Assembly: GCA_000002435.2 (NCBI GenBank)
Contig: CM018789.1
Source: Giardia intestinalis
Lineage: Eukaryota
Strand: one strand, 5' to 3'
Length of the DNA: 64,000 bases
The translations under genes and the position numbers were made by a program. Below are positions 26,590-64,000 of the stretch, piece after piece. Each line of letters opens with the position of its first letter. The stretch's first letter is position 1. The notes below the pieces were generated by a model. It saw only the letters and a list, made by a program, of their open reading frames with translations. It did not search any database and was not told the DNA's origin.

Positions 26590-26595
26590 GCAGTC

Positions 26596-28218: not shown

Positions 28219-28538
28219 CTTCTGTCCGCGCTTCCATGGCTGAGTTGCAACGGACAAGGTGCAGACAGTTCGGGCTTCTGGGGGTCACCCACAAGGCACT
28301 ACGTCTGAGATATGCATATCCAGAAGATACCGTGGACCAGCGTTTTGCATCTCGTTGTCCGCGCCACGACCCAAGCATATTTAGGACTTCTTTCTACCTC
28401 ATCATTGTCAGTTCTATTGCCGAAAGATTTACTCGCATGGAGGATTAATAATTAGAAATGAAAATTCAACACAGACCAATATTATAGAATCAATCTGCCA
28501 GCAAACAGCACAAAGGTAGCTACAGAACTATCGCTAGA

Positions 28539-48366: not shown

Positions 48367-48748
48367 TTCTTTTTTGTCCCACAATCAAGTAAATTTTTTT
48401 CGTACCCTTTTTAGCCCGCAAAAAGACTTTAGAAATTGAGCTTAGTTTATGTGGATGGTTTGCAAGGTTGCCCACTCACATACAGATAGCCTGCACTCTG
48501 GTCATCAAAAGCCTTTTCTGATATTGTTTACTTCTTTACTTATAAGAATTACGGCGCTGCCCTGCGTCATTAAGGTTTGAATGCTCATGTAGTAAGTGGT
48601 AAGATTGTATGTCCCGGGTCAATTAGCTTTCAGGGCAAAGTATTTTTTGAAGTTGCTACAATTAAAGTTATTTTAATAGAGCCCAATAGAAGCATGAAAT
48701 CGTGGATAGGTGGTGAGGAAGCCTCTTGATGATGTTTACAGACTGACA

Positions 48749-50317: not shown

Positions 50318-50383
50318 TTATCGCTGAATTTTATTTTTTGAAAGGAGAAGGAAGAAGAATTAAGCAGAAGACAGCAGATTTCC

Positions 50384-52855
50384 ATGTCTGGCCCAGGTCG
50401 CCGTGGTGTAAAGAACCGCTGCAATGCACTATTCATTAACATGGCTACCATTTGGAATACCTATGGGTTTGACGTAATGATGTATCATCTTCTATGTAAC
50501 GAAATTCTTGTCTACACCTTCTTTCTGATGAGCATCTACTCTGCTATCTATACCATCTATGGTATAATTGATTTCTCCTCCTCTCAGGCCCTTCTAACCT
50601 CAAACCTCTTCACGGTTATGCAAGGATATGGATATGATTGGATTTCCTTTGCCGTACAGATGTCTGCCATACTTGCTTTTGTTCTCTATACCAAGTTCCT
50701 GCTCATTTATAGACGCGACTTACTGAGAATCCAGGAATTGACACATCTAGACGTGAGTTTATATACACTTTTCCTTTACAACGTTAGGGCTAAGACGCGC
50801 GATGAAGACATAATTGCGCGCATCGACAAGGACTTAACATATCTAAAAGGTACATTTGCTGTTCCCAAAGAGGTACAGCGACCAGTAACCAAGGAGCAAG
50901 ACCCTAGGGGCGATAGAGGCGAAGCGTTCCATGTCTCAATGCATGAGAAGGTCATCAAGTGCGGGCAGAAGAGGTGGGGAAGAAAGGGTGATTGCGAAAG
51001 AGAGCATCACATAGATCACATCTTCTCATTGGAGAGGATTCGCGACTTAAATGTCTATCATGCTAAGAGACGTCTTGCAGAACTTGAGACGCAATACTAT
51101 AATCAGATTAAGGCAAATCCCCAGAAGCTTGTACCAAAGCGTGGTCGTGGAGCATCCTGCCTAAAGGCGCTTGGGATTATCAAGTGCATGCAAAAATATG
51201 GGCTTCTGCGGGATGCTATTTGGTATAATGAGGCTATTAAATGGGAGAAAATGAAAGTACAAAAGATGGAGGCCATGAGTTCAGAGACAAGCAAAGGAAT
51301 GGCTATTGTCATTTTCAAGTTGGCCTCAGCAAAAACGGCTTTCTACAATCATCGGCAGTCTTACTTGGGAGACAGATATGTCGCGGTTAAAGGAAACATC
51401 ATACGTGTCACCAAAGCACCATCACCCAGCGATGTGAATTGGGATAATGTGCACAGAGGGAGAGCTATTTTCCTTGTGATGTTCCTCTGTTGTCTTCTCC
51501 TTTCATTACTGCTTACATCCGTTGTTTATTTGATCACCGCAGTGATCAGAGCTTATCAGCGAATCATTGCGTCTCAGACAACCTCTGTCATTACGTCGCT
51601 CGCGCTAAGTGGAAGTATGTACCTTGTTATATTACTTTCCGATTATCTGGGGAGGGTCTTGATGACCAAGATCGTCCAACTAGAGCGCCATCACACAACC
51701 TCTGCGTATGAAACATCGTATCTGCTCCGTTACTTTATCTATATCTTTATCAATAGACTGACACCTCTATATTCCCGAACAATCTTGGAATATTTAACCA
51801 ATCTATTCACCAATCTATTCAAGCCATTGAACCTGAACAATTATTATTTTTTTAAAATAATAGACTTCACGAAAGATTGGCGGTGGGGAAAAGATACTCC
51901 GGGGCGCGACATATTAATGTATGTGATACTAGCAACTGTCCTTGATAACACACTTGATGTTATCCTGCACTATTTGCAACCCGCTGCATGGGGTGAATGC
52001 TGTCATAAACGTCACACAAGTAGCCCTGAACATCTCATAGAACGTGGTGATAGCGTTGTTGAGGAGAACACAGAAACAATAAGCTTGGTGACTACCAAGG
52101 CAAAGTACTACTGTGGCTGTCACTGTGAGTTCTGCAGAGTGCGGTCACATGACGAAGAAGCTTTGCGGCTAAAGCTAGAGTACAGCATGCTCTATTGCAG
52201 ACTGGCATCTATATTCACTTACAGTCTATCATTCGGATATACTCAGCCCGTAATACTCCCTATCGCATGTGTGTATTTTCTTTTGCAGAACATTGTGGGC
52301 AAATGCAAGCTCGTCTACTTGTCTAAACCGGGAAGGAAATTCTCAACCTCTCTGTCATCATATTTTTGTAACGTATTGCTGACCTTTAGCTATCTATTTG
52401 CAACAGCTACATTAGCTCAAGGGTATCTGTCCAGCGCGGTTGTGCCAGCTGGAATAGCTCTCTCTATTGGCTTCCCAATCGTCATTCTCTTCTCAGCTAT
52501 CTTCAATACTGCAACTATATGTGCTCTTATTAAAATCTGCCGCTGCAGAAGGAAAATTGAAAAGGAGACGTCCCTTCGCAAGAGCATCATAAGCCATAGT
52601 TATGGAATGCTCAGCAAAGAGATAGAAGAGGAAAGGCGGTTCAACAAGATGCCCATCTATGATCCTGACCTGCATGGAGAATATATATTTCAGCCAACAA
52701 CGGGCTATTCTGAAAAAGAATGTGCAAAGCTAAAGACTCTCTTATCTAGTGCAATCTCAGGAAAGGCAGATGACTCCAGCGCCACGCCTGAGGTAACAGA
52801 GGCGATGGCCGTATCGAAGTTAAGAGCCTCTCCTACATCGTCACAGATAGACTAG
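50384..52855 (+). CDS. OSCA/TMEM63/CSC1-like calcium-permeable mechano/osmosensitive cation channel (RSN1_TM, PHM7_cyt, RSN1_7TM architecture)
   Basis: N-terminal transmembrane helices come first. A cytosolic domain follows, with the OSCA signature AIVIFKLASAKTAFYNHRQ...APSPSDVNWDNV (compare AFVTFKSR...APEPRDVYWDNL). It is followed by a 7-TM pore region (LVMFLCCLLLSLLL..., GIALSIGFPIVILF). ATG at 50384. Confidence 0.8.
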   Translation: MSGPGRRGVKNRCNALFINMATIWNTYGFDVMMYHLLCNEILVYTFFLMSIYSAIYTIYGIIDFSSSQALLTSNLFTVMQGYGYDWISFAVQMSAILAFVLYTKFLLIYRRDLLRIQELTHLDVSLYTLFLYNVRAKTRDEDIIARIDKDLTYLKGTFAVPKEVQRPVTKEQDPRGDRGEAFHVSMHEKVIKCGQKRWGRKGDCEREHHIDHIFSLERIRDLNVYHAKRRLAELETQYYNQIKANPQKLVPKRGRGASCLKALGIIKCMQKYGLLRDAIWYNEAIKWEKMKVQKMEAMSSETSKGMAIVIFKLASAKTAFYNHRQSYLGDRYVAVKGNIIRVTKAPSPSDVNWDNVHRGRAIFLVMFLCCLLLSLLLTSVVYLITAVIRAYQRIIASQTTSVITSLALSGSMYLVILLSDYLGRVLMTKIVQLERHHTTSAYETSYLLRYFIYIFINRLTPLYSRTILEYLTNLFTNLFKPLNLNNYYFFKIIDFTKDWRWGKDTPGRDILMYVILATVLDNTLDVILHYLQPAAWGECCHKRHTSSPEHLIERGDSVVEENTETISLVTTKAKYYCGCHCEFCRVRSHDEEALRLKLEYSMLYCRLASIFTYSLSFGYTQPVILPIACVYFLLQNIVGKCKLVYLSKPGRKFSTSLSSYFCNVLLTFSYLFATATLAQGYLSSAVVPAGIALSIGFPIVILFSAIFNTATICALIKICRCRRKIEKETSLRKSIISHSYGMLSKEIEEERRFNKMPIYDPDLHGEYIFQPTTGYSEKECAKLKTLLSSAISGKADDSSATPEVTEAMAVSKLRASPTSSQID

Positions 52856-52948
52856 TGTACTCTGTCTAGTTACCCTTTCCCTGCGCCTATACAAAGTTAT
52901 GCTGTCTCTGAAGGGCGCCAGTAATCTCTTGTCTCAGAATGTTTCAAA

Positions 52949-53758
52949 ATGATTAAAATGAACTCGCAAGATGACCAGAGTGAAGAGCTCTTTATGCCAG
53001 AGGCGGAGTTCTCTGATGTTCAGCTTAACCTAGAGTTCGCTGACTCGTCAGAAGACTTTAAACCGGAGATTGAGACGCTAGCTGGTGCATTTTGGGCACA
53101 GACGCCACACAGTGAGCTTGCCTTTGAATTGGCCAAAATAGTTTCAGCCCAGCCTGAAATTGGTACAGTTGCTTGTGGCGACGACTCGGCTGTCCTAGGA
53201 TACCATAGTATAATTAACTTAGGACAGCACATGCATATCTCAGCCATAGAGGCCCTCTTTGACTTGCTATTAAATGCCTTAGAAGAATACAAAGACACGT
53301 TGCCGCCTGCTAAGCTTTTCTGGCAACGCCTTAAGGCTGGGACTGTTTGCCTAGGGTTTCTGACTACAGGCCGCTACACAAATTTGCCTATGAGTGCAAT
53401 TGCAGCCTTCTATCAGGTTGTCAAGGACGACATAGAGTGGGCCTCTAGTGCAAAATACAATAGCAGCACTCCGTCACATCTCTTTAAGTTCACTCACATC
53501 CTTTACATCACCAAGGCCGTGCTGAAGGATACTGAGCCTTCCATGAACCAAACAACTGGGTGCACAACTAATCCATTAAACCGCCTCAAGAAACGAAGCC
53601 TGGCTCGGCCAGAGGACACAACCATTATTGAATGTTCTCTATTTACTCTTCTTGTACCAGCTTCCTTGGGCTCATTTACCTGCTGGGTGATCTCTGTTCT
53701 AGATTTGGCCGGGTACCTTCGTGTCTCGAAAGCATTAGCTGATGAGGACTTCGATTGA
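52949..53758 (+). CDS. Hypothetical protein (269 aa)
   Basis: ATG at 52949 in AT-rich context (atgtttcaaaATGATTAAAATG). Open 0.8 kb. No recognised domain. Confidence 0.5.
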   Translation: MIKMNSQDDQSEELFMPEAEFSDVQLNLEFADSSEDFKPEIETLAGAFWAQTPHSELAFELAKIVSAQPEIGTVACGDDSAVLGYHSIINLGQHMHISAIEALFDLLLNALEEYKDTLPPAKLFWQRLKAGTVCLGFLTTGRYTNLPMSAIAAFYQVVKDDIEWASSAKYNSSTPSHLFKFTHILYITKAVLKDTEPSMNQTTGCTTNPLNRLKKRSLARPEDTTIIECSLFTLLVPASLGSFTCWVISVLDLAGYLRVSKALADEDFD

Positions 53759-53823
53759 GTCAATATAGGTGTTGCATACGTGCCATCCGCCGGAAGTTGT
53801 TTGCATAACAGGTGATTGTCATG

Positions 53824-56800
53824 TCAGCGTGGTCCCTTCAGTAGTTCCCGAATGCGGTTATCGTTAGCCCAGTACAGCGCGTTCTTCTTGTCTGGCTGGG
53901 TGATGTCCAGCTCCTCATCTAATAGTAAACGAACACATGCTTCATGCCCATTTGTTGCAGCAGCCATGAGCGCAGTGAAGCCTTCACCAAGCTCATAAGC
54001 TGCGGTAGTCGTCATTCTGACCTCCATATCCTTCAACAATTTGACACAGTCAGTGTACCCATTCCAAGCGGCAAACATGAGCGCCGTGCGGCCCTCCTTA
54101 TTCTGCATACGTCCCTCTACGGGAAGAAGCATGCGGCAGGCCTCCAAATTCCCCTTACTTGCGGCAAGCATTAACGAAGTTGTTCCATTGTTCCAGCCGC
54201 GGCCAGTCATCTGCATTTTCGCCTCATAAGGTATGAGCAAACGCATTATTCCGAGATACCCCCGTTCTGCAGCAATCATGAGACCCGTGCGGCCATTTCT
54301 ATCTGTGAGCTTAGCCTGCTTGGCCAGTAATGAATATACCTGAACAATGTCATTAAGTTCAGCCGCTTGCATGAGTTCTGTGCAACTCTTTCCGTCGTGC
54401 GGAAGAATATCATCTGTGCTGGGTGTCTCCCGACGAGCTAGTATTTCCGCTGTCTGTAAATTGCCAGCCTCCAAGGCGAAAGCCAGCGCTGTCTGCCCAT
54501 CTTTTGTCATTATTCCAGCTTCAGCGTTCAAAAGGCAATAAACTGCATCAGTGTAGTCGAGCTTTGCAGCTATCATTAGGGCTGTTTCCCCATTACTATT
54601 TTTCTTCCCAGCCTCCACAGGAGCAAGAAGTTTGACGAAGTCCAACTTTCGCCGAGTTACGGCTATCATAAGTGCCGTGTAAAGTGGATAGGGAGGAATG
54701 TCTCTAGTCTGCATGCCCGCCTCTCTATTTATTAAGCGCCGCGCAATATCAAGTCTATCATGTTCTACTGAATACATCAGTGCGGTCCTGCCGTTAATAT
54801 CCATCAATCCAGCTGAGAGATCTATCAGCAACAAGGCTGCATCGGTAAACCCAACTTGGATGGCATACATCAACGGCGAAATACCTTGTTGATCTTGCCT
54901 TCTTGAAAGGCTATCCATAGCTTGTTGCACAGCCGTGATATCCTTATTAGTTATGGCACGGAAAAGAACGTTGTCATCGTGCTGTCTTTGCATGGTTGTG
55001 CGTACAATATTTGTATTAATAGTTGGGGACACTGCTTCGGAGACAGTCACTGTTTCCACCATAGGGCTTATGGTAGTGTTGACGACGCTGACTCGCCGAT
55101 CTATAGGTTTGGGTACATTTGCCAGAGCCGTGGACGCTGAGGAGGGACGATAAATTACATCCTGCAAAAGACCATGTGAAGCATTTGCATTAGGCTCCAA
55201 GAGCGGCTGTTCCTTATGTGACTGGTGGGCATTAGGGGCATGGCCTCCCGGTAAGTAATCATCGTTTCCGGTATGTGCTTGCTGAATCGTAGCAAATCCA
55301 GGAGTGAACAGAGACGGGGTTGCTGTTGTCACAGAGTCCTCAATTGGTGCTGATGTTATGCTGCCGCGCCTATTCTCAATAGCGTGCTGCAACGCGGAGA
55401 GGATGTCGTCTTCGGAGATACGTGCTGGCGTTTCGTGCATCCGTCGAGGATCCAGTGAGCTCATTTCATGCATATCGGGGATACCTCGCAATGCAGAATT
55501 GGGGCCGGCTGCAGACGCAGAGCCTGGGCGTGATGATCCCTGCTGCTTGGCATGTCCAGAACTCTGAAAAGTGTATGTACCTGAACCTGCAGGATAAGAC
55601 TGTCCCGAAACAAGCCTTATGGCCTCTAACTCAGCGACCCGTTGCTTCAGTTCTGAGCATTCCCTGATGTACTTTTGAATATTTGCCTCTTTGTTTTGAC
55701 GTAGAGGCTGCAAAATACTGATGAAATCTTGCCGTAACTTGTCTTGGGCTATAGCCAGAGCAGAATCTATATCACGTAACTCAAACATGATGCTTTTGCT
55801 CAAAAGGGCAGACAATGCAACTGTGGATCCACCCATCACGGCATAATAAAGAGCCGTGTTACCTGCTGCATCCCTCTCTGTGCATAGTTTTTCCAGAAGT
55901 ATGTTTATGGATTGCACGCTTCCACTGTGTGCTGCAAGCATCAAAGCAGTGCAACCAGCCGGCCATGTGGAAAGTTGTGTTGTGGAGAAGTAGGCCTCAT
56001 AGTCTAATAGTAGCTTGACGATGAGATAGTGTCCAGAGATCACAGCATGCATGAGAGCTGTAAATCCATCAGATTGCTGAATCCCTGCTTCATGCTCTGC
56101 TAAGACAAAAGCTATGTCAATAAAGCCATTGCATGCAGCATGCATGAGTGCTGTCTTGTTATCTCTATCTCTTACCCTCGCCATTATACCTACATGAGCC
56201 TTTACATATGCGACATTATTTTGCTGGACGGCAGAGAACCAGGCATCGCCGAGATCTGTCTGGGTTCCAATAGAGTTACTGGCCATAATTTGAGATATAT
56301 TGAGCCTGCTACTAGAGAGACTCGGCGGAAGGGCATAGGCTGGGCCCTTTTGAGAGTCTTTGGCATCTGGAAATTCAAGGCCGTGCTGCTGCTTGAGCTG
56401 TGCCAGTTCAGTAGTCAGAGCTTCTATTATTCCTGCTTGAGAGGTGATTTCGAACTTCTGTAGCATGTAATCGTTTCGAAGCTTTTCAAGCTCTTTGTTA
56501 TCAGCATTCTCAGAAAAATTTAATTGCGATGATTCCATAATACAAACATTAGAGTACAGTTTAGATACAAAGTCTGTTACTTTCTCTTTTTTAGTTTCAG
56601 GTAAATCTAAAAGAATTTCATGAAACGTACAATCCATATCTTTGTCGGGAAAATGAAGTGTGCGGAGCGGTGTCTTAAGCTTTTCTGCAAGGCGGGAAGC
56701 TGGAGACATTCGTATGGATGTAATTGCATCTAGCGCCGACAGAATAGTCTTATCTTCATACACCTTGCTGCCATCTAGGTTCAGCATTGGAGAGGTAAGC

Positions 56801-58365
56801 CTGTTATGACTCAGCGGAGGGGTAGCAGCAATTTTACTTTTAACCAACGTGTGCCCTTCTAATGCAGTTATATATTTTTGAACATCCTTCCAACTTTCTA
56901 TTGCATCTAAAGGAGAAATACCGTTAGGCATATTCGATAAGTCTTCTGCAGTGGTTACCATGGCCAGCTTTCCTGGAGTGTTTGACGATTGATGATTAAT
57001 TAGGTTGACCATTGGTGCCATCGCACTAATAAGCTGCTTGGTGGTCTTGACTGCAGGACTATTAACGACCTCAAGCACGCTTTGATATGTCCGCGCAGAT
57101 GGCGGGGTATTCGTTCCATTTGCTACTGTTCCTATATGTGACAACGCTAAGCGCAGATTTCGCTCAATTTCGCTAAAGGAGCTAAAAGAACGGTCAGTCT
57201 GCACAACGGGAGCAGGAGCAGACGATGCACCGGCGAATGGCTGCATGTTCAATGTTGGCAGAGTCGACTCCGTATTGATAAATGTGTGCAAAGTAGAAGG
57301 GTTAGAAGACGTGATCCCCGTGGGGATATGCTGTGATAACGTGCTCACATCCGAAAGAGTGCTAAAATCGTAAGGCACATAAGGTTTGTACGTGGATGAT
57401 GTATTGGTGCTTATCTTTGGGGCTGTAAAGTTGGCTAACGGTGAAAGAGATCCATGAGTAGCTGTGGTAGAGTCGATCACGTTGGAGTCTGGTAACACAG
57501 AGAAGCCGTCAACTGACGTCTTTGTATCAGCCTGCTTCTGTTGCTGTGCACCAAAGTGGTAACTTCGTTGCATAGGTTGCTGAGTCTGTTTCCCGGGGGT
57601 GAGTGACTCTACTCCCATTGACTTCGATAGGGAGGGTCTTAAATTGTCAATGAATCCATCAGGACGAGGGATCTTAGACGTGACATTCATAGAGGACGCC
57701 TGTGAAGCGTCGCTATCTGCTGTAAGGATATTATTTGCCGAGGCTGCTGGCTTGAAGCCATCTTTGACATCTGTCTTGAGTGATTTAACATTTATTTGGG
57801 AACTTGCAAAGGAATGATGATGCTCAAGAGCCTCCTTCAACGCTGTCTCAATTGCACCAAGGTCCTTAGCCCGTGCTAAAGAAAGAGAGAGCTCAAGCAC
57901 CTCCTCTTGGAAGACCATTCTTTGTAGCAAGAGGCGAACACAAACAAGGCTCTCCGCTAGAACCGCATAGTCCAGAGCACAGAGATCGTGACTGTCCCGC
58001 CTGTACGACACATATTTTAGGAGCACAGAAAGAGACTCCACAGAGACCGATTTGGCGGCAATCATAAGGCAGTCTCGCCCTCGGTCACAATAGATATTGG
58101 CCTCGTACGGAGCTAAAAGTTCGCAAACGTCAGGGTAATCCCTCGAGGCAGCAATCATTAACGCTGTCCTGCCATCTCTTGTCATTCGCCCATGTTCGTG
58201 GGCAGCCAGGATGCGAACAATGCCTATTTTGTTCAAACGGGCAGCCAAAATAAGAGCTGTATCTCCAGCATCATTCACGGTGAGCTTATACTGTGGCAGA
58301 AGCTGTTGAATAAGGCTCGTGTCACCTGCCTCCACGGCACCAAACCAGTCTGCGCTTCCTGGCAT
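53824..58365 (-). CDS. Giant ankyrin-repeat protein (Giardia 'Protein 21.1'-like): N-terminal ankyrin repeats, Ser/Thr-rich low-complexity middle, coiled coil, C-terminal ankyrin array
   Basis: Numerous 33-aa ankyrin repeats with the diplomonad-typical pattern (G.TALM.AA..G...V..LL..EAG..). Coiled coil at ELEKLRNDYMLQKFEITSQAGIIEALTTELAQLKQQ. The track ORF reaches an ATG at 58398, which overlaps the upstream gene's stop (ATGA). An alternative ATG at 58365 (MPGSADWFG) follows atttcattaaaattctg. I annotated from 58365. Confidence 0.85.
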   Translation of the reverse strand: MPGSADWFGAVEAGDTSLIQQLLPQYKLTVNDAGDTALILAARLNKIGIVRILAAHEHGRMTRDGRTALMIAASRDYPDVCELLAPYEANIYCDRGRDCLMIAAKSVSVESLSVLLKYVSYRRDSHDLCALDYAVLAESLVCVRLLLQRMVFQEEVLELSLSLARAKDLGAIETALKEALEHHHSFASSQINVKSLKTDVKDGFKPAASANNILTADSDASQASSMNVTSKIPRPDGFIDNLRPSLSKSMGVESLTPGKQTQQPMQRSYHFGAQQQKQADTKTSVDGFSVLPDSNVIDSTTATHGSLSPLANFTAPKISTNTSSTYKPYVPYDFSTLSDVSTLSQHIPTGITSSNPSTLHTFINTESTLPTLNMQPFAGASSAPAPVVQTDRSFSSFSEIERNLRLALSHIGTVANGTNTPPSARTYQSVLEVVNSPAVKTTKQLISAMAPMVNLINHQSSNTPGKLAMVTTAEDLSNMPNGISPLDAIESWKDVQKYITALEGHTLVKSKIAATPPLSHNRLTSPMLNLDGSKVYEDKTILSALDAITSIRMSPASRLAEKLKTPLRTLHFPDKDMDCTFHEILLDLPETKKEKVTDFVSKLYSNVCIMESSQLNFSENADNKELEKLRNDYMLQKFEITSQAGIIEALTTELAQLKQQHGLEFPDAKDSQKGPAYALPPSLSSSRLNISQIMASNSIGTQTDLGDAWFSAVQQNNVAYVKAHVGIMARVRDRDNKTALMHAACNGFIDIAFVLAEHEAGIQQSDGFTALMHAVISGHYLIVKLLLDYEAYFSTTQLSTWPAGCTALMLAAHSGSVQSINILLEKLCTERDAAGNTALYYAVMGGSTVALSALLSKSIMFELRDIDSALAIAQDKLRQDFISILQPLRQNKEANIQKYIRECSELKQRVAELEAIRLVSGQSYPAGSGTYTFQSSGHAKQQGSSRPGSASAAGPNSALRGIPDMHEMSSLDPRRMHETPARISEDDILSALQHAIENRRGSITSAPIEDSVTTATPSLFTPGFATIQQAHTGNDDYLPGGHAPNAHQSHKEQPLLEPNANASHGLLQDVIYRPSSASTALANVPKPIDRRVSVVNTTISPMVETVTVSEAVSPTINTNIVRTTMQRQHDDNVLFRAITNKDITAVQQAMDSLSRRQDQQGISPLMYAIQVGFTDAALLLIDLSAGLMDINGRTALMYSVEHDRLDIARRLINREAGMQTRDIPPYPLYTALMIAVTRRKLDFVKLLAPVEAGKKNSNGETALMIAAKLDYTDAVYCLLNAEAGIMTKDGQTALAFALEAGNLQTAEILARRETPSTDDILPHDGKSCTELMQAAELNDIVQVYSLLAKQAKLTDRNGRTGLMIAAERGYLGIMRLLIPYEAKMQMTGRGWNNGTTSLMLAASKGNLEACRMLLPVEGRMQNKEGRTALMFAAWNGYTDCVKLLKDMEVRMTTTAAYELGEGFTALMAAATNGHEACVRLLLDEELDITQPDKKNALYWANDNRIRELLKGPR

Positions 58366-58394
58366 CAGAATTTTAATGAAATATTTACTTAACT

Positions 58395-59069
58395 TCATGT
58401 CCAGGAAAGCGCCTCTAGAACATCATTCTTCGACTCGCCCAACGTAACATCATGATTGTGCCCAGGGTAGATTCTGAAATCGTCAGACAGTTCTTTGTAA
58501 ATTCGTTTCACAGATGCTTTTAATTGCTTTGAAGATCCACCGGGGAAATCTGTTCGTCCGACGGAGTTAGCAAATATGGTATCACCCGTGAAAACGACCT
58601 TGGCCTTATTACAGTACAACAGAGAGGAGCCCGGCGTATGGCCTGGGGTGTGCATAATCCTGAAGATGTTATCGTTGCCTAGATCAAAGGTCGACTCCTC
58701 ACTGAATGTTTCATCCGGTTCAGCTGGAAAGTCAGCTGGAACGGACTCCCCAAAGAGAGGAGCAAACATTCTGTTTGCCTTCCAATGGGTAACATCATCT
58801 GCGTGGGAATATATCTTAGGGGAGCCAAATCTGTCACCCTCCTTTTTCAACTCATTCACCACATAACCAGTCCCAAAGACGTGATCGAAGTGCGTGTGAG
58901 TAAGGAGGATGAAGAGGACCTTGAGTTTTTGCTTCTTCACATAGTCTAAAACATCGGGACAGCTCGCACCAGGATCGACAATCAGTGCGTTGCAGCTTTT
59001 CGGATCAAACGCAACATAGCAGTTTGCTTGCAGGGGGCCCGTAGGGAATGTAGCAACGGTCAGAGACAT
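58395..59069 (-). CDS. Metallo-beta-lactamase-fold hydrolase (bacterial YcbL/GloB-like, about 224 aa)
   Basis: Motif THTHFDH (HxHxDH), then HTPGHTPGS and the GDTIF...GRTDFPGG block typical of small bacterial-type MBL hydrolases. The track start is GTG at 59072; the ATG is at 59069. Confidence 0.85.
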   Translation of the reverse strand: MSLTVATFPTGPLQANCYVAFDPKSCNALIVDPGASCPDVLDYVKKQKLKVLFILLTHTHFDHVFGTGYVVNELKKEGDRFGSPKIYSHADDVTHWKANRMFAPLFGESVPADFPAEPDETFSEESTFDLGNDNIFRIMHTPGHTPGSSLLYCNKAKVVFTGDTIFANSVGRTDFPGGSSKQLKASVKRIYKELSDDFRIYPGHNHDVTLGESKNDVLEALSWT

Positions 59070-59131
59070 CACAGGCTGTTTTTGACCTTAGTTTTCAAAA
59101 CTGCGCCAAGCTGAATTAAAACGGCGAAACA

Positions 59132-59518
59132 ATGCCGATACCGGAGGTGCGTCGACAATTGGCGGCACTCATCAAAGCTGTTCAGCGTGGGGAATGGCCG
59201 GCCATACTGCCGCCTGAAATTACCGCAAAAGATTACAGCATTCTTGTGCAGTACATATCTAACCCAGACCAGCGCGTTGAGGCAACACGAAAGCTGGCAG
59301 GACTGATAGTGGACCTGAAGACCAACGCACGCTTGCTTCTGGACTCCAATCCGTTTGCTACAGAGAAGGAGCAGCTGCGGCAGATCTTCCGGGAGCAGGA
59401 GCAGCTTATTCCGAACGCGTCGATCGGGTGCTCCTTCAGCCGGCGCAGCCTCCTGCTTTCGCACAACACGAGTAGGGCGAGCGTCCTTCAGTCACAGAGC
59501 GCCTCGTTCAGCGAGTAA
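59132..59518 (+). CDS. Hypothetical small protein (128 aa)
   Basis: ATG at 59132 after a 62-bp divergent spacer. Open frame MPIPEVRRQLAALIKAVQRGEWPAIL.... No recognised family. Confidence 0.45.
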   Translation: MPIPEVRRQLAALIKAVQRGEWPAILPPEITAKDYSILVQYISNPDQRVEATRKLAGLIVDLKTNARLLLDSNPFATEKEQLRQIFREQEQLIPNASIGCSFSRRSLLLSHNTSRASVLQSQSASFSE

Positions 59519-59574
59519 ACCCAACCAATACAACCATACTACCTATACAATTTATATGTTCTCGCGCAGGCGAC

Positions 59575-59656
59575 GGCGCTATGGCCGAGTGGTTAAGGCG
59601 ACAGACTTGAAATCTGTTGTGCGTCGCACGCGTGGGTTCGAACCCCACTGGCGCCG
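59575..59656 (+). tRNA. tRNA-Ser(UGA): tRNA-Ser (anticodon UGA), class II with a long variable arm
   Basis: Acceptor GGCGCTA pairs with TGGCGCC (one G-U pair). D-arm GCCGAGTGGTTAAGGC. Anticodon stem ACAGA/TCTGT with loop CTTGAAA (anticodon TGA). A 14-nt variable arm with a GTGCG/CGCAC hairpin. T-arm GTGGG-TTCGAAC-CCCAC. Discriminator G73. 82 nt. Confidence 0.85.
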
Positions 59657-59889
59657 CTTTCGTCTGGGCTTCCGCCGGGATAACGCTTCATGCTATGCGC
59701 TCACTTCTCCGTCGAGCACTGCATCCACCTCCAACTCTGGTGCTACCAGCGGACCCCAAGACCTTTTGGACGAGCGTCGATATGTTATGGCTGTCCTAGC
59801 GCACACTAATAAAGCTGGAGATGGCAGAGCAATTTTGAGCCTAGAAGCCACACATAATGGAAAGTACATATTAACTGCAAACGTGTGAT

Positions 59890-60520
59890 GATGATTCACT
59901 CCGCCCACCGGCTGCCCCCGGCGCTAGCTATTGAGCTCCGCGACGGACCCTCCATCCTTGGCCGTGGAGCGGGGCTCCTCAAGGCAGCAGGGGGCCAGCG
60001 CGGTCGCCGCTCCCATCCCCAGCCGCCGGGCTAGCACGCCCACTGAGCCGCGACAGGCCCATCAGAGTCTACTTGTTTGCATGTTCTGCGGAGGGCGGCG
60101 CGTTTCTACCGTGGGTCAGGGGGCGAGGGATCTCGTCGGAAGCCGTGCAGATGCACCGATCGGGCAGCAGCCCCAGAAGATCGCCAGCCTGGCCTGTGCT
60201 GGCAAGTCGGGCAGTGGCGACGAGCGCTCCGGTCCGGGAGAACATGGTCTGCCCGTGTCTTCGCGCTGTCCACCGGCGGCCCCTCGCCTCCCGATCTGCT
60301 GCCCACGGGTGAGGACGGGGGCGACAATCGTTGCGGCCCTTGATGGCCCGCTGGGGGCCGGGCTCCTGCCATGTCAGAGGCAGATGCGCAGCCCGGCCCT
60401 AGAGCCAGCCCTGGATGAGTCCCTGCACCGCGCCCCGGGCGGCCTCGCTGGCGGCGGCGGCGGCCCTGACCCCGTGTGCCTTCGCCTCGTAGGGGGCCAG
60501 GGCTCCGACGCACTCGATAC
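59890..60520. other. GC-rich island of about 600 bp (roughly 70% GC) between tRNA-Ser and the 3' end of the downstream ankyrin gene
   Basis: Runs of gccgccgggc, ggcggcggcggcggccc and similar. Both strands carry overlapping ORFs, as expected from GC-driven stop depletion. It contrasts sharply with the 49% GC surroundings. The last about 40 codons of the ankyrin gene (Ala-rich ...VRAAAAASEAARGAVQ...) lie inside it. Confidence 0.5.
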
Positions 60521-63500
60521 GGCCATGCTTTGCGGCATAGGTGAGTGCAGTATCACCTGCCGGTGTCACTATGTTGGCCTCAAGTTTAGCCAAGATTTGC
60601 ACGCATTCTACATGTCCATACGTAGAAGCAAACATAAGTGCAGTTAGGTCGAAGTTGTCTTGAGATCCAGCTTCATATGGAGCAAGCACTTTACACGCGT
60701 CCGCGTGTCCATAAATAGCTGCTAACATTAATGCAGTCCTTCCCTTAGAATCAGTGAGAGTAGCTTCAGTTGCAACTAGCTCTTTGATGGAGTTACAGTC
60801 GTCTACCATGGCCGCTATCATAAGGGCCGTTGGCTCAACCACTGGGAAAATCCCTCTTGTGTTGAAGCTGCCCTGAAGTCTTGTCCCGCTCTCCACACTC
60901 TTTAAGACGCTAACACACTCATGATGACGGTTAAGCACAGATAAGTGTAGCGCGTTATACCCCCTCTTGTTATAGTTGCCGTGCATATACAAAAACGCTT
61001 TTACATATCCTACCTCTCCAGAGATAGCCTTCTGCATGAGCTGCGTATTTCCATCATCATCTAGCAAAACATCTACCCTTAATGAGTTGACTAATTCATT
61101 AGTAAAGCAGTCCTTGCGTGCGAAAGAAGTAGCAATAGCGTATGCGGTAACACCGTTTGTCATGCAAAGATCGCGCTCTTCTAGGAGCAGTGGGATAAGT
61201 GTAAGTCTAGCGAGCAACACAGCTATCATAAGAGCTGTTTGACCTGCTGTAGTTTGTTGACGCAGTAAGCCTTCCTTAATATACCTTTTTACGGCATGAA
61301 TATCATCTGCTAGAACCGCAAACATAAGCTGCGTATATCCTGCGCTCATCAAGAGAGCCCTTTCGACAGACGCTAAAATTGCTATGGAAGTTAAGTCTCC
61401 TGAGATCATAGCTAACTCTGCAGCAAAGTGACCATCTGCATCGACCATGTTTGCTTCGTAATGCACGAGAACTTCAACAATTGCTGAGTGTCCCTGAGAT
61501 GCTGCAAACATAAGCGCCGTTTGGTGCATGTTGTTGGTGGTTTTTGCTAAGTATATACTTGCATGCACTCCGGCTAGATCTCCATGTAATGCAGCACGAT
61601 GCAGCGTAGTATTTCCATTACTATCTGCGGACGGAGAAGGACCAATAATCCGTTGTAGAGCTAAATGGTTGTGCCTCATTTGCTTCTCCCAGCGGCTCAG
61701 CATTTCTGGATCAAGATGTAGCGATGAAATCATGCTCGTGACCATGTCACCTTTAGCTAGGTTTGCGCTTGAAGTTTGCAGATCATCAGTTATAGTCTCT
61801 GTTGTACTAGCCTCAGAGCCGTGTTCAGACGTGTTAGAATATATGGACACTGGTGGGACAAAACCCAGTTCGAGAGGAACGATAAGATTACAAAGCTCCT
61901 TGTTACCGGATTGAATGGCAAGTTGGGACGCTTTTATTCCCTGCTTAGTTTGAAGTCCCACTTCGCTTCCTAGTAATATCCTCGCTACATCAACATGCCC
62001 AGCTGCACATGCCAGCATCAACGCTGTTGTTCCATCGTTTGCCTGAAGACCATAGAGTGTTGTCTTGGAAGTGACCTGGTCCATACGACCATAGAAGGCA
62101 TCGATCATGAGATCTGTGTAGCCATCTTCAACTAAAAAATCTCGCTCTACTGGCAATAATACATCAACCATATCTTTGTTACCGGCCAAGAGCGCGCACT
62201 TTAGAGCATAGGATTGCCCATCTGTTGACCGCATTCCTGATTCTGCCTCTAAAAGTGACTGATCGACGCACCTGCATCCACGCGTACCTGCTCTCAACAT
62301 CAGTGCAGTTAATCCGGCGCCATTGTATAATTTATACTGATAGGAATATTGCTTAGTAATTATAGGACCTTTCGTAATGGCTATTCGATGCAGATCATAG
62401 TTTCCTTGCTCATCAACTATGCTGTCAGGCTCGAGCATGGACAATAAGTGCTTGTGACTATTACGTTGCGCAATTTGCCAAGCTGTCTCCCCATCTGCAG
62501 AGACGATACTCTTTGTATCAAGTAGAAGCTCACAACAATCTGCATGACCTTTGGCTGCTGCATACATTAGTGCTGTCCATCCCTTGCTATCAACAAGGTT
62601 TTTCTGAGACTGAAGACACCATGTGTAATTAAAATTGCCTGCATCTGCTGCCTTCATGAGAGGTGTCATCACATGCTCAGAGCCTTGCTCGCAGAATGTG
62701 ACATCGGTAGCAGGTGGCCCTTCATAGTCCTTCAAGATAGCGCACGCCTCTTGATAGCCCATGCGAATAGCTATAGTAAGTGCGGTAGCATCTGTAAAAC
62801 TTCGTATATTATTCTCTAGTGGCGCCAAAAGATCGATGATATCCGTATGATTCATTATGGTGGCTTTCATGAGAGCCGTTTCACCGGCCTTATCTACCAG
62901 CCCTGCCTCTACACTTGCTAGTCTTGCAACAGCAGAAAGAGATCCTGCTTCTGCCGCAAACATAAGTGCGGTCTTTCCAATAAGACTGGTCGAATCTGGA
63001 TCAGCTATCCAATCTTGCTGATCAACCTGCATGCCACCTTCGACATCAATTAAGTATTCGATAGCCTGCTGATTTCCGTACTTGGCCGCCAACATCAATG
63101 CAGTCATGCCAAAGACATTCCTTAATCGTGCCTGTCGTAAGTAACAAAATGTGCTAAAGGGATCCTTATTAACTACGGCTAGCATTAGGTCAGTGTTGAA
63201 ATCACTTTCTGCCGTGGGGACGGTGTCGCTGGGACCTTCATACTGAACGAGCTCCCGTGCCAACTCCAAGAATCCGTTGGTATATGCTATTTGAAGTGCT
63301 GTAAGGCCATCAGGAGTGCGGCTACCTTGCTCATATGGAGCTAATATCCGCGCTGCATCAATATAATTCTTCTCTGCACAATAGTGAAGTGCAACCCTTC
63401 CGTCCCTGTCTGCAATGCCATGTCCATGTTGTGCAAGAATCCGAATCGCAGGGAGATAGTCTTTCTGCGTTGCTTTGTGTAGTGCAGTAAATCCGTCTTC

Positions 63501-63884
63501 GTCTGGTATGGCTGATTGTTTCTCACGCCAATACCATACTGAATCAATGTCTTCTGCCTCAACGGCAAACAAAAGGTTCGTCATGTTGTGGTTTGAAACC
63601 ACCAATGAATGATCTTGTCTTTCTAAATCGTGCAGAGCCAGTGCTATGTCAAGATGTCCGCTTTTTAGTGCATAGTGGAGTGCTGTGTGTCCCTCAGATG
63701 ATATGCGCATTGCTTCTGTGTTTAGTAACACTTGGACAATTTCATAATATCCCAAGCTCGCAGCCTCCATGAGAGCTGTCTTTGGACACAATGGAGGCGA
63801 AGTCAGACCGCGTCCAAGAAGTGCTGTAACACGGTCGAGATTCTTCTGCCTAACAGCATCTACTAAGGCGTCATACGGTGGCAT
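60399..63884 (-). CDS. Giant ankyrin-repeat protein (Protein 21.1-like), about 1160 aa, essentially all ankyrin repeats
   Basis: More than 25 tandem ankyrin repeats (GHTALHYALKSGHLDIALAL..., GFTALHKATQKDYLPAIRIL...). The track start is GTG at 63920. The first ATG at 63884 gives MPPYDALVDAVRQKNLD. Confidence 0.85.
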   Translation of the reverse strand: MPPYDALVDAVRQKNLDRVTALLGRGLTSPPLCPKTALMEAASLGYYEIVQVLLNTEAMRISSEGHTALHYALKSGHLDIALALHDLERQDHSLVVSNHNMTNLLFAVEAEDIDSVWYWREKQSAIPDEDGFTALHKATQKDYLPAIRILAQHGHGIADRDGRVALHYCAEKNYIDAARILAPYEQGSRTPDGLTALQIAYTNGFLELARELVQYEGPSDTVPTAESDFNTDLMLAVVNKDPFSTFCYLRQARLRNVFGMTALMLAAKYGNQQAIEYLIDVEGGMQVDQQDWIADPDSTSLIGKTALMFAAEAGSLSAVARLASVEAGLVDKAGETALMKATIMNHTDIIDLLAPLENNIRSFTDATALTIAIRMGYQEACAILKDYEGPPATDVTFCEQGSEHVMTPLMKAADAGNFNYTWCLQSQKNLVDSKGWTALMYAAAKGHADCCELLLDTKSIVSADGETAWQIAQRNSHKHLLSMLEPDSIVDEQGNYDLHRIAITKGPIITKQYSYQYKLYNGAGLTALMLRAGTRGCRCVDQSLLEAESGMRSTDGQSYALKCALLAGNKDMVDVLLPVERDFLVEDGYTDLMIDAFYGRMDQVTSKTTLYGLQANDGTTALMLACAAGHVDVARILLGSEVGLQTKQGIKASQLAIQSGNKELCNLIVPLELGFVPPVSIYSNTSEHGSEASTTETITDDLQTSSANLAKGDMVTSMISSLHLDPEMLSRWEKQMRHNHLALQRIIGPSPSADSNGNTTLHRAALHGDLAGVHASIYLAKTTNNMHQTALMFAASQGHSAIVEVLVHYEANMVDADGHFAAELAMISGDLTSIAILASVERALLMSAGYTQLMFAVLADDIHAVKRYIKEGLLRQQTTAGQTALMIAVLLARLTLIPLLLEERDLCMTNGVTAYAIATSFARKDCFTNELVNSLRVDVLLDDDGNTQLMQKAISGEVGYVKAFLYMHGNYNKRGYNALHLSVLNRHHECVSVLKSVESGTRLQGSFNTRGIFPVVEPTALMIAAMVDDCNSIKELVATEATLTDSKGRTALMLAAIYGHADACKVLAPYEAGSQDNFDLTALMFASTYGHVECVQILAKLEANIVTPAGDTALTYAAKHGRIECVGALAPYEAKAHGVRAAAAASEAARGAVQGLIQGWL

Positions 63885-64000
63885 AGTAAAGGCCAATCCA
63901 GTGCGTGATAGATCCTGCACGGATATGCGAGGATCAAACGTTCGTGCGGTTGAAGTTACCTTCGTCGCGCTCAGCTCAACTTGCGGGGCATTTGTGCTCC

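What the first reader, a model, noticed from the sequence alone, without database searches (positions are those of the whole stretch)
59890..60520. Unexplained GC-rich island of about 600 bp and about 70% GC
It is compositionally unlike the rest of the window. It has overlapping ORFs on both strands (59931-60647 plus strand, 60106-60513 minus strand), which are an artefact of stop depletion. It has alanine/glycine-coding runs (ggcggcggcggcggccc). It swallows the last roughly 40 codons of the ankyrin gene, whose final repeat is replaced by an Ala-rich tail (VRAAAAASEAARGAVQ). Candidate explanations: (1) an insertion or gene-conversion tract of rDNA-like or subtelomere-like GC-rich DNA that truncated the ankyrin gene; (2) a structured Pol III ncRNA near the tRNA, for example SRP/RNase P/MRP RNA (one segment, aaggcagcagggggcc, is reminiscent of SRP helix-8 motifs); (3) a recombination or biased-gene-conversion hotspot.
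Basis: seen in the sequence. Interest (0 to 1): 0.55.

Follow-up and report, generated by a model that had tools for sequence, protein, structure and literature searches.

The report
GC-rich duplicated scar beside ankyrin gene
The GC-rich island is real, but it is not an RNA gene, an rDNA fragment or a gene truncation: it is a non-coding, two-copy leftover at a spot where Giardia assemblage A lost a kinase gene, and a strong AT-to-GC substitution drive there has also rewritten the last ~50 codons of the neighbouring ankyrin gene.

Summary
Window 59890-60520 is 71% GC against 47.6% elsewhere, and it is the only such block in 64 kb.

The window is Giardia duodenalis assemblage A.
- **Ankyrin gene not truncated.** Orthologues in assemblages A, B and a more distant lineage are 1452-1454 aa, and the Ala-rich tail aligns residue for residue with their tails.
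- **AT-to-GC shift in place.** In the A and E lineages the last ~52 codons changed: GC3 rose from 0.25-0.30 to 0.95. Polarised changes are 24 W->S against 3 S->W, and 17 are shared by A and E.
- **Kinase gene lost.** In B and the distant lineage a ~680-aa NEK kinase gene lies between the ankyrin gene and tRNA-Ser. In A only frameshifted remnants remain (59664-59876), followed by the island.
- **Second copy.** Window 59889-60250 recurs at 99.4% identity 152 bp upstream of a DEAD-box helicase gene carried on a WB contig of the same length as the ankyrin gene's (probably the same chromosome). Short-read contigs break at both repeat ends.
- **Not an RNA or a gene.** There is no Rfam hit, no excess RNA structure, no codon periodicity and no protein homologue. 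The WB ORF GL50803_37173 is a stop-depletion artefact.

Best reading: a low-copy duplication at a rearrangement scar, made GC-rich by biased gene conversion. The origin of the ~510-bp core is unresolved.

The parts
59575..59657 (+). tRNA-Ser(TGA). It is the conserved anchor on the left side and is present at the same place in all assemblages examined.
   Evidence: ARAGORN and Rfam RF00005 at 64.7 bits. The same tRNA lies next to the 128-aa gene in L001, L002, L007, L011 and L014.
59664..59876 (+). Frameshifted remnant of a NEK kinase gene (pseudogene). Pieces correspond to residues ~47-87 and 286-320 of the 682-aa assemblage B orthologue. It ends ...GKYILTANV followed by TGATGATGA.
   Evidence: tblastn of the B NEK (L011 184-2232) hits window 59775-59876 at 74% identity over 35 aa, plus 59705-59761 in another frame. 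blastn gives 77% to L011. The intact gene lies between ankyrin and tRNA in B and the distant lineage.
59889..60250 (.). Repeat R: the left 362 bp of the island, present a second time 152 bp upstream of a DEAD-box RNA helicase gene that is probably on the same chromosome.
   Evidence: L024 315-676 is 99.4% identical to window 60250->59889, with unrelated flanks on both sides. The helicase-side junction also appears in L020, L025 and L030. Short-read contigs end at 60218 (L021/L022 plus 20 similar) and start at 59921 (L025, L030), about k-1 inside each repeat end. The WB helicase, ankyrin and MBL proteins are each recorded on a contig of the same length, 1,485,438 bp.
60251..60398 (.). GC-rich intergenic segment found only at this locus, between repeat R and the ankyrin stop codon. 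It is invariant among the three assemblage A sequences compared.
   Evidence: Copy 2 diverges from the window at 60250. There are no differences among window, DH and L007 across 60249-60419.
60399..60560 (-). Last ~52 codons of the ankyrin gene. They are orthologous to the B tail but strongly AT->GC shifted in the A and E lineages (tail HGVRAAAAASEAARGAVQGLIQGWL against B HGVRAMTIANSAIRSATQRIIQTYL).
   Evidence: - GC/GC3 per 20 codons in A.57/.50.72/.85.82/.95, against a flat ~.43-.45/.20-.50 in B.
- W->S 24 against S->W 3. 43% of ancestral W sites changed against 15.5% in the rest of the gene (p=1.7e-6).
- GC ramps from 0.43 to 0.93 between 60,608 and 60,429.
- A 25-nt stub of the last repeat (60530-60554) sits at the far end of copy 2.
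60399..64000 (-). Ankyrin-repeat protein gene (Protein 21.1 / 'Ankyrin repeat protein 1', 1452 aa). Its start codon lies beyond the window end, at about 64757.
   Evidence: ORF. About 100% identical to P0137, and in the same 90% cluster as WB XP_001709172.1. The DH gene model is L001 4277-8674.
60081..60647 (+). ORF annotated in WB as hypothetical protein GL50803_37173 (XP_001709173.1, 188 aa). Judged not to be a real gene.
   Evidence: - P0282 equals the window translation from MFCGG....
- No codon periodicity.
- A 1-bp deletion at 60119 in DH and L007 breaks the frame.
- Among 1.84 billion representatives, only self-locus hits.
- No Pfam hit.
- It overlaps the ankyrin gene antisense by 250 nt.

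Best explanation
The island is a non-coding scar, not a gene.

**Ancestral arrangement (shown).** This arrangement is kept in assemblage B and in a more distant lineage. The ankyrin gene and a NEK kinase gene converge with a 20-nt overlap, and tRNA-Ser lies just upstream of the NEK start.

**What happened in the A/E lineage.**
- Shown: the NEK gene was destroyed. A kinase-domain deletion is shared with E, and further loss occurred in A.
- Shown: in A, about 510 bp of GC-rich sequence of unknown origin now lies between the NEK remnant and the ankyrin stop.
- Inferred from a 25-nt ankyrin stub at the far end of copy 2: a unit of about 670 bp, covering the ankyrin tail plus this core (~59889-60560), was duplicated to a site upstream of a DEAD-box helicase gene.
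- Shown: 362 bp of the second copy is still 99.4% identical to the window.

**Proposed mechanism (inferred).** Repeated non-allelic and/or allelic gene conversion across this duplicated unit, with the usual repair bias towards G/C, drove AT->GC fixation throughout it. That would explain three things:
- The GC-rich block coincides with the duplicated unit.
- The composition is GC-rich regardless of coding status.
- The orthologous ankyrin tail reached 95% GC3 and was pushed towards Ala, Gly and Trp codons.

Most of this drive predates the A/E split.
For: 1. **Ankyrin gene intact.** Orthologues have the same length and a homologous tail. GC3 rises 0.30->0.95 only in A and E.
2. **Polarised substitutions.** With B and the distant lineage as outgroups, the last 52 codons show 24 W->S against 3 S->W in A and 19 against 1 in E. 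Fisher p is 1.7e-6 and 3e-6 against the rest of the gene. 17 of the W->S changes are shared by A and E, 4 are A-only and 2 are E-only.
3. **Non-coding core equally GC-rich.** The core is 71% GC with no phase-3 signal, so the bias is not codon selection.
4. **Two genomic contexts for 59889-60250.** Contig breaks sit at k-1 from both repeat ends in dozens of independent short-read assemblies.
5. **Concerted evolution.** The window's copy 1 differs from copy 2 (L024) at 1-2 sites. The orthologous copy 1 of DH and L007 differs from both at 14-15 sites.
6. **Coincident boundaries.** The GC ramp begins at ~60,580-60,545, where the ankyrin-derived stub of copy 2 starts (60,530-60,554). Copy 2 is itself a 450-bp block at 70% GC bounded by the stub and the R end.
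7. **Lineage-specific.** There is no island at either locus in B.
8. **Literature.** In G. duodenalis assemblage A, genes inside inferred gene-conversion tracts are GC-enriched, median 0.541 against 0.488 (PMC12669663). gBGC has also been proposed for the GC-rich Giardia rDNA (PMC10123126).
Against: - The origin of the ~510-bp core is unknown. It shows no similarity to the NEK 3' half of B, the distant lineage or the P15 pseudogene, even with scoring that forgives W->S changes. It may have been GC-rich when it arrived.
- The left edge is a step, not a ramp. That looks like a junction rather than a decaying conversion gradient.
- The tail part of copy 2 is now reduced to a 25-nt stub plus 65 unrelated nt. 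Ectopic conversion of the tail would therefore have had to happen before that deletion.
- The differences between copy-1 haplotypes show no obvious W->S excess, though numbers are small.
- The relative orientation and distance of the two copies on the chromosome were not seen.
- In P15 the sequence downstream of the ankyrin tail is unknown, because the contig ends inside the tail.
- gBGC has not been demonstrated mechanistically in Giardia.
Confidence: 0.6

Rival explanations
1. GC-rich filler or insertion. The ~510-bp core was already GC-rich when it was captured at the break that destroyed the NEK gene, for example from an rDNA spacer, a subtelomere or a decayed VSP-type sequence. It was later copied to the helicase locus. 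The GC shift of the ankyrin tail would be a secondary or separate effect.
For: - The left boundary at 59,889 is abrupt and is also the repeat boundary.
- The core has no detectable homology to the NEK sequence it replaces, while neighbouring NEK remnants are still 74-77% identical to B.
- Other non-coding blocks of 75% GC exist in Giardia, for example P15 L014 ~624-1840 with Cys-rich ORF fragments beside VSP genes.
Against: - It does not explain the in-place, gradient-like AT->GC shift of orthologous ankyrin codons.
- No rRNA model hits.
- No VSP or other Pfam signal in six frames.
- No translated similarity to the VSPs in L014.
- Copy number looks like two rather than many.
Confidence: 0.2
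2. Local mutational bias without gene conversion. Recurrent breakage and repair, or transcription- or replication-associated mutagenesis at a fragile convergent gene junction, would produce AT->GC changes and rearrangements.
For: - The site is rearranged independently in A and in E: P15 has VSP genes next to an AT-rich NEK pseudogene.
- Sequence diversity among assemblage A isolates peaks here at 11-12 segregating sites per 200 bp, against mostly 0-5 elsewhere.
Against: - Private changes in DH and L007 within the repeat are mostly G->A, the opposite direction. Mutation itself therefore seems AT-biased, and a fixation bias is needed.
- The P15 NEK pseudogene at the same junction stayed at 35-50% GC.
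Confidence: 0.12
3. A functional element: a structured non-coding RNA (SRP, RNase P or MRP-like, or Giardia-specific), or a cis-regulatory or small-RNA-generating repeat shared by the ankyrin and helicase loci.
For: - 60249-60419 is invariant among three A isolates.
- An assembly of an RNA-seq run (SRR2642200, listed as RNA-seq in PMC5224939) covers the whole island, so it is probably transcribed at some level.
- Transcripts from opposite strands of the two copies would be complementary over 362 nt (inference).
Against: - No Rfam family at E<=10.
- Folding energies are within shuffle expectation.
- No Giardia ncRNA 3' processing motif within kilobases.
- No Giardia splice-site motifs were seen by eye in the two flanks read.
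- Absent from B and the distant lineage at both loci.
- The repeat part is hypervariable with indels.
Confidence: 0.05
4. A real protein-coding gene: WB hypothetical protein GL50803_37173 on the plus strand.
For: It is annotated in the 2007 WB genome as XP_001709173.1, and the window encodes the identical 188 aa.
Against: - No codon-phase GC signal, and stop counts as expected by chance.
- A frame-breaking 1-bp deletion in DH and L007.
- No homologue outside this locus among 1.84 billion representatives.
- No Pfam hit.
- It overlaps the ankyrin gene antisense.
- Not annotated in DH.
Confidence: 0.03

Closest known systems
Mouse Fxy (Mid1) gene straddling the pseudoautosomal boundary: the textbook case of GC-biased gene conversion acting on part of a gene (from my own knowledge: Perry & Ashworth 1999; Montoya-Burgos et al. 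2003; Galtier & Duret 2007)
   Same: - Only one end of an otherwise ordinary gene is affected.
- GC3 rises to near saturation.
- Non-coding neighbours are equally GC-rich.
- Many amino-acid replacements go towards GC-rich codons.
- The change is lineage-specific and tied to a change of genomic context.
   Different: - In Fxy the cause is relocation into a meiotic recombination hotspot. Here meiosis is not established, and the associated feature is a two-copy repeat at a gene-loss or rearrangement scar.
- The scale is ~160 bp of coding sequence plus ~510 bp of non-coding sequence, not kilobases.
GC enrichment of gene-conversion tracts and multi-copy sequences in Giardia (assemblage AI/AII conversion tracts, PMC12669663; GC-rich rDNA attributed to gBGC, PMC10123126)
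   Same: The organism is the same, and so is the association between conversion and high GC. Copy homogenisation is seen here in the AI-like window sequence.
   Different: - Those reports are gene-level statistics (median GC 0.54) or concern rDNA.
- This is a single 0.63-kb, 71% GC, two-copy intergenic block with polarised substitution evidence.
- No rRNA similarity.
Non-syntenic breakpoints between Giardia assemblages, which are enriched for NEK kinase, Protein 21.1 and VSP genes (Franzen et al. 2009, PMC2723961; the description here is from my own knowledge)
   Same: A NEK kinase gene is lost in A and pseudogenised in E. VSP genes are inserted at the same junction in P15. The flank is a Protein 21.1 gene.
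   Different: The literature I could search does not describe a GC-rich duplicated block at such breakpoints. That absence is from a limited search only.

Membership tests
Structured ncRNA (SRP / RNase P / RNase MRP or other Rfam family) | Covariance-model match to a curated family | tested here: not met
   cmscan of 58500-61500 at E<=10 returns nothing inside the island. Only tRNA-Ser and chance hits overlap the tRNA. The whole window at gathering thresholds gives the tRNA only.
Structured ncRNA (SRP / RNase P / RNase MRP or other Rfam family) | Folding energy beyond the composition expectation | tested here: not met
   z = -0.56 (plus strand) and -1.30 (minus strand) against dinucleotide shuffles.
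Structured ncRNA (SRP / RNase P / RNase MRP or other Rfam family) | Giardia ncRNA 3' end processing motif (TCCTTTACTCAA consensus, as quoted in PMC5224939) downstream | tested here: not met
   With <=2 mismatches there are 5 matches in the window, none between 36 kb and 64 kb. 6.2 are expected by chance.
Structured ncRNA (SRP / RNase P / RNase MRP or other Rfam family) | Conservation across assemblages | tested here: not met
   Absent between ankyrin and tRNA in B (L011, L017) and the distant lineage (L002, L018). Absent upstream of the helicase in B (L027).
rDNA-derived fragment | Similarity to SSU, 5.8S or LSU rRNA | tested here: not met
   No rRNA model hit at E<=10.
rDNA-derived fragment | Similarity to the rDNA intergenic spacer or subtelomeric units | not testable with these tools
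   No Giardia rDNA unit or whole-genome BLAST was available. Only two flanking contexts were seen in the assemblies sampled, which argues against a many-copy origin.
GC-biased gene conversion tract (Fxy-like) | Excess of W->S over S->W substitutions on the affected lineage, polarised by outgroups | tested here: met
   24 against 3 in A and 19 against 1 in E in the last 52 codons. The rest of the gene shows 236 against 104. The W-site change rate is 43% against 15.5%, p=1.7e-6.
GC-biased gene conversion tract (Fxy-like) | The bias acts alike on synonymous, non-synonymous and non-coding sites | tested here: met
   GC3 is 0.95 and the tail residues changed to Ala, Gly and Trp. The non-coding core is 71% GC with flat phase GC.
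GC-biased gene conversion tract (Fxy-like) | Independent evidence of recombination or conversion at the site | tested here: inconclusive
   There is a two-copy repeat. Copies are near-identical in the AI-like window, but copy 1 is 4% diverged in DH and L007. This is suggestive of non-allelic conversion, but assembly or polishing artefacts and incomplete sampling cannot be excluded.
GC-biased gene conversion tract (Fxy-like) | W->S alleles segregate at higher frequency than S->W alleles | not tested
   This needs population read data, and only three haplotypes were available.
Low-copy segmental duplication | The same sequence with two different pairs of unique flanks | tested here: met
   One context is ankyrin-island-NEK remnant-tRNA (window, L001, L007). 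The other is X-R-helicase (L024 plus 13 similar). The helicase-side junction is also in L020, L025 and L030.
Protein-coding gene (GL50803_37173) | Codon periodicity, frame conservation, homologues | tested here: not met
NEK kinase pseudogene (for the island core 59890-60398) | Residual similarity to the NEK 3' half | tested here: not met
   Nucleotide, purine/pyrimidine, W->S-forgiving and translated comparisons with B, the distant lineage and the P15 pseudogene all fall within shuffle expectation. The GC-shifted ankyrin tail used as a positive control scores 94 against 30.5 +/- 2.7. The flank 59664-59876 does meet the test.
VSP / cysteine-rich gene remnant | Pfam VSP (PF03302) match or a CXXC-rich frame | tested here: not met
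   No Pfam hit at E<=10 in any frame. No translated similarity to the VSPs of L014.

The most novel reading that the evidence does not exclude
The locus would be a fine-scale, datable footprint of GC-biased gene conversion in Giardia, an organism whose sexuality is disputed.
- A two-copy repeat is homogenised in the AI-like lineage.
- The conversion drive has pushed a 0.67-kb unit to 71% GC.
- It has forced more than 10 amino-acid replacements in a conserved ankyrin protein tail before the A/E split.

A bolder variant: the two copies, which would give 362-nt complementary transcripts if read from opposite strands, act as a recombination or small-RNA-generating element linking the ankyrin and helicase loci.
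Probability: 0.45. Interest if true: 0.5.

Novelty: new member of a known kind. Interest (0 to 1): 0.4.

Why it matters
- **Annotation.** GL50803_37173 should not be treated as a gene. The Ala-rich ankyrin tail is orthologous sequence rather than a truncation, and assemblage A has lost a NEK kinase that B retains.
- **Biology.** The site gives a compact, testable case for biased gene conversion in Giardia. It has outgroups, a shared A/E history and two copies with contrasting homogenisation in AI-like and AII-like sequences. That bears on the debate over recombination and asexuality in this parasite.
- **Assembly.** It also explains a recurrent break point in short-read assemblies.
- **Limit.** It is one locus, and the mechanism is a known one, so the general interest is moderate.

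Tried and rejected
- **Rfam.** Scans with permissive E-values on the region and with gathering thresholds on the whole window found only tRNA-Ser.
- **RNA folding.** Both strands are unremarkable.
- **Giardia ncRNA 3' motif.** Absent nearby.
- **Bacterial-type promoter and terminator scan.** Empty, and not relevant to a eukaryote.
- **Repeats within the window.** No second copy in the 64 kb.
- **Is the core a decayed NEK 3' half?** Local alignment in nucleotide and purine/pyrimidine alphabets, a W->S-forgiving matrix with a positive control, and six-frame tblastn all gave no signal.
- **Pfam on all stop-free frames.** No hit.
- **HMMER of the 238-aa ORF against 1.84 billion representatives.** Only two hits, both from this same locus. 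One is a frameshift-ridden 1-kb contig, and the other clusters with WB GL50803_37173.
- **The 65 nt between the ankyrin stub and R in copy 2.** No significant similarity to the 280 nt at the corresponding place in copy 1.
- **Exact 31-mer scan of JGI metagenome contigs.** No match.
- **The contig joining ankyrin, island and helicase (L020/L023).** I first read it as a structural variant. I rejected that because SRR2642200 is an RNA-seq run (PMC5224939). The join is best explained as an assembly path through the repeat.
- **Trans-splicing geometry.** Considered because of the complementary copies. By eye I saw no GTATGT 5' site in the NEK-remnant end and no CT[AG]ACACACAG 3' site in the 152 bp upstream of the helicase start. 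The helicase gene is complete in one locus.
Full report

Yes. Window 59890-60520 is 71.0% GC, while the rest of the window is 47.6%. In 200-bp windows the maximum is 75.5%, about 5.4 SD above the window mean. No other stretch exceeds 0.65. The one other elevated area, 26-28 kb at 58-65%, is the end of a 5631-aa dynein-type ORF plus a 553-aa ORF, so it is ordinary coding sequence.

The left edge is a step: 34% to 74% GC within about 25 bp at 59,889. The right edge is a ramp inside the ankyrin gene, running 0.93, 0.77, 0.70, 0.60, 0.53, 0.43 per 30 bp from 60,429 to 60,608.

Stops per frame (2-4) equal the expectation from composition (3.2 +/- 1.7). GC by codon phase is flat at 0.68/0.74/0.69, against 0.90/0.59/0.78 in the adjoining real coding tail. 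'Stop depletion artefact' is therefore correct.

**2. Where is this?**

The metallo-beta-lactamase-fold gene at 58395-59072 is 100% identical to Giardia duodenalis hydroxyacylglutathione hydrolase. The window is about 98% identical around the island to the DH isolate contig AHGT01000011 (L001) and to a WB-like metagenome scaffold (L007). Contigs carrying the WB ankyrin protein (L021, L022) match it 100% across 60218-60800. It is an assemblage A genome, probably AI-like.

The local gene order is:
- MBL gene, minus strand;
- a 128-aa ORF, 59132-59518;
- tRNA-Ser(TGA), 59575-59657;
- about 230 bp of other sequence (see section 4);
- the island;
- a 1452-aa ankyrin-repeat gene on the minus strand, with its stop at 60399.

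**3. The ankyrin gene is not truncated.**

Orthologues were found in four lineages:
- assemblage A (P0137, 1452 aa);
- assemblage B (P0139, 1452 aa);
- a more divergent, AT-rich lineage (P0140, 1454 aa). I did not verify which assemblage this lineage is;
- P15, assemblage E (P0138). That contig ends 8 codons before the stop.

The tails align residue for residue:
- A: HGVRAAAAASEAARGAVQGLIQGWL*
- B: HGVRAMTIANSAIRSATQRIIQTYL*
- distant lineage: HGTRAATIASESIRGAVQKVIQEYL*

The difference is composition. For the last 120 codons in 20-codon bins:

| Lineage | GC/GC3 per 20-codon bin |
|---|---|
| A | .43/.30, .47/.35, .40/.30, .57/.50, .72/.85, .82/.95 |
| E | same rise as A |
| B | flat |
| distant lineage | nearly flat, reaching only .52/.60 in the last bin |

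I polarised changes using sites where B and the distant lineage agree. The last 52 codons then have 24 W->S and 3 S->W changes in A, and 19 and 1 in E. In A, 43% of ancestral A/T sites became G/C, against 15.5% in the remaining 1121 codons (p = 1.7e-6; E p = 3e-6). Seventeen of the W->S changes are shared by A and E, four are A-only and two are E-only. Most of the shift therefore predates the A/E split.

The Ala run is the product of this drive on orthologous codons (M, T, I -> A; R/K -> G; Y -> W). It is not a replacement of the last repeat.

**4. What used to be there.**

In B (L011, L017) and the distant lineage (L002, L018), the ankyrin gene is followed by a convergent NEK kinase gene of 682-692 aa. 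The two genes overlap by 20 nt at their 3' ends. The NEK start lies 18 bp from the same tRNA-Ser.

In the window only about 740 bp separate the ankyrin stop from the tRNA. tblastn with the B NEK finds residues 286-320 at 59775-59876 (74% identity). It finds residues ~47-87 at 59664-59775 in shifting frames. The remnant ends GKYILTANV followed by TGATGATGA at the island edge.

P15 keeps a longer, AT-rich NEK pseudogene beside the tRNA, covering residues 24-92 and 307-665. It is followed by VSP genes rather than the ankyrin gene.

The NEK gene was therefore inactivated in the A/E lineage, with a shared kinase-domain deletion. The junction was then remodelled differently in A and E.

**5. The island is partly a two-copy repeat.**

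Many independent short-read assemblies break inside the island:
- contigs coming from the tRNA side end at 60,033-60,036 (L008-L010);
- contigs from the ankyrin side end at 60,218 (L021, L022 and 20 similar).

One contig (L020/L023) runs from the ankyrin gene through the whole island. It then leaves the window sequence exactly at 59,889 and continues to a DEAD-box RNA helicase gene.

Looking up that helicase gave L024 (plus 13 similar contigs). In L024, 362 bp (315-676) are 99.4% identical to window 60250->59889. This block lies 152 bp upstream of the helicase start, and the sequence beyond it is unrelated. L025 and L030 start 33 nt inside the same end.

The break points at 60,218 and 59,921 are therefore the repeat ends minus or plus about k-1. 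The WB helicase, ankyrin and MBL proteins are each recorded on a contig of the same length, 1,485,438 bp, so they are probably on one chromosome. I could not retrieve that record to confirm it.

SRR2642200, the source of L020/L023, is an RNA-seq run (PMC5224939). I therefore read the ankyrin-island-helicase join as an assembly path through the repeat. It does suggest that the island is transcribed at some level.

In B the helicase is preceded by a CK2-beta gene and 305 bp of ordinary intergenic DNA with no island. Copy 2 is therefore also lineage-specific.

At the far end of copy 2 there is a 25-nt stub, GATACCGCGCTCACCTATGCCGCAG. Its only match in the window with <=3 mismatches is the last full ankyrin repeat at 60530-60554. 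This suggests the duplicated unit originally ran from about 60,560 to 59,889, which is the GC-rich block itself. It also suggests the ankyrin locus was the source. The 65 nt between the stub and R in copy 2 are not recognisably related to the 280 nt at the same place in copy 1.

**6. Signs of copy homogenisation.**

Differences within 59889-60250 are as follows:

| Comparison | Differences |
|---|---|
| window vs copy 2 (L024) | 1-2 |
| window vs DH copy 1 | 15 |
| window vs L007 copy 1 | 14 |
| DH vs L007 | 12 |

To the right of 60,250, window, DH and L007 are identical for 171 bp. Segregating sites per 200 bp are 11-12 across 59,600-60,200, against mostly 0-5 elsewhere.

The simplest reading is non-allelic conversion making copy 1 equal to copy 2 in the AI-like lineage. 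Consensus or polishing artefacts in a two-copy repeat cannot be excluded.

**7. What it is not.**

- **Not a known RNA.** No Rfam family hits at E<=10. Folding z-scores are -0.56 and -1.30. There is no Giardia ncRNA 3' motif nearby.
- **Not mature rRNA-derived**. The rDNA spacer could not be tested.
- **Not protein-coding.** The plus-strand ORF is annotated in WB as hypothetical protein GL50803_37173.
  - It has no codon periodicity.
  - It is frame-broken by a 1-bp deletion in DH and L007.
  - It has no Pfam match.
  - Among 1.84 billion representative proteins it hits only sequences from this same locus.
- **Not recognisably the NEK 3' half or a VSP remnant**.

**8. Most likely mechanism.**

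- **Shown:** a lineage-specific gene-loss and rearrangement scar; a low-copy duplication whose extent matches the GC-rich block; and a strong AT->GC fixation bias acting on orthologous coding sequence and on non-coding sequence alike, mostly before the A/E split.
- **Inferred:** the bias is GC-biased gene conversion, sustained by exchange between the two copies and/or between homologues at this site.

This fits two published observations. Genes in conversion tracts of assemblage A are GC-enriched (PMC12669663). gBGC has also been suggested for the GC-rich Giardia rDNA (PMC10123126). The closest textbook analogue, from my own knowledge, is the mouse Fxy gene at the pseudoautosomal boundary.

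Weak points:
- The origin of the ~510-bp core is unknown.
- The left edge is step-like.
- The tail part of copy 2 is now deleted.
- Private variants in DH and L007 are mostly G->A. That argues the bias is in fixation rather than mutation, but it gives no direct support.

I put about 0.6 on this explanation. The rivals are 0.2 for a core that was GC-rich on arrival, about 0.12 for a purely mutational bias, and under 0.1 together for a functional RNA or a real gene.

**9. Verdict.**

The anomaly is real and is now largely explained. The truncation, rDNA and ncRNA ideas do not. It is a new example of a known kind of process, of moderate interest. Its value is for correcting annotation, for explaining assembly breaks, and as a testable locus for biased gene conversion in Giardia.

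Noticed in passing
window 59664-59876 (+): Frameshifted remnant of a NEK kinase gene that is intact (682-692 aa) at this position in assemblage B and a more divergent lineage. Assemblage A has lost this kinase. P15 (L014 ~8137-9433) keeps a longer AT-rich pseudogene with the same kinase-domain deletion.
   Followed up: yes
L014 (P15, ACVC01000048) ~624-1840: A 1.2-kb block of up to 75% GC between the EF-1alpha gene and a VSP gene. It has ORFs in all frames and some Cys-rich (CXXC-like) fragments, no Rfam hit and no similarity to the island. It may be a decayed VSP-type sequence. It shows that very GC-rich non-coding blocks occur elsewhere in Giardia.
   Followed up: partly
window 48400-64000 against L001 (DH) and L007: DH and the WB-like metagenome scaffold L007 are almost identical to each other from 48.4 to 57.2 kb, while the window differs from both by about 1%. 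From 57.2 kb onward all three differ. This is a haplotype-block boundary (mosaic ancestry) a few kb from the island.
   Followed up: no
window 60249-60419: 171 bp with no difference among the three assemblage A sequences. It lies directly next to a stretch with 14-15 differences per 362 bp, and the switch falls exactly at the repeat boundary (60250). It could reflect the haplotype structure, paralogue exchange limited to the repeat, or constraint on the ankyrin 3' end.
   Followed up: partly
L020/L023 (logan SRR2642200_302): A 50-kb 'contig' assembled from an RNA-seq run joins the ankyrin gene to the DEAD-box helicase locus through the repeat. It is probably chimeric. Public assemblies of Giardia RNA-seq runs behave like genome contigs and can mislead synteny inference.
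   Followed up: partly
L024 1-314 (upstream of copy 2): Fourteen contigs start at the same base, 828 bp upstream of the helicase gene. This suggests another repeat or branch point just beyond the AT-rich sequence that precedes the ankyrin-like stub. In B the upstream neighbour is a CK2-beta gene, which is not seen here, so the helicase upstream region is a second A-versus-B synteny break.
   Followed up: no
window 26000-28000: A moderately GC-rich stretch (58-65%) that is ordinary coding sequence: the C-terminal end of a 5631-aa dynein-heavy-chain-like ORF (9682-26577) and a 553-aa ORF on the minus strand (26596-28257).
   Followed up: partly
L011 2232-2333, L002 2267-2350: In B and the distant lineage the NEK start codon lies only ~18 bp from tRNA-Ser. 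Automatic gene calls extend the NEK ORF into the tRNA (for example, the N-terminus VGSNPTGAVFLK... is the translated tRNA).
   Followed up: no
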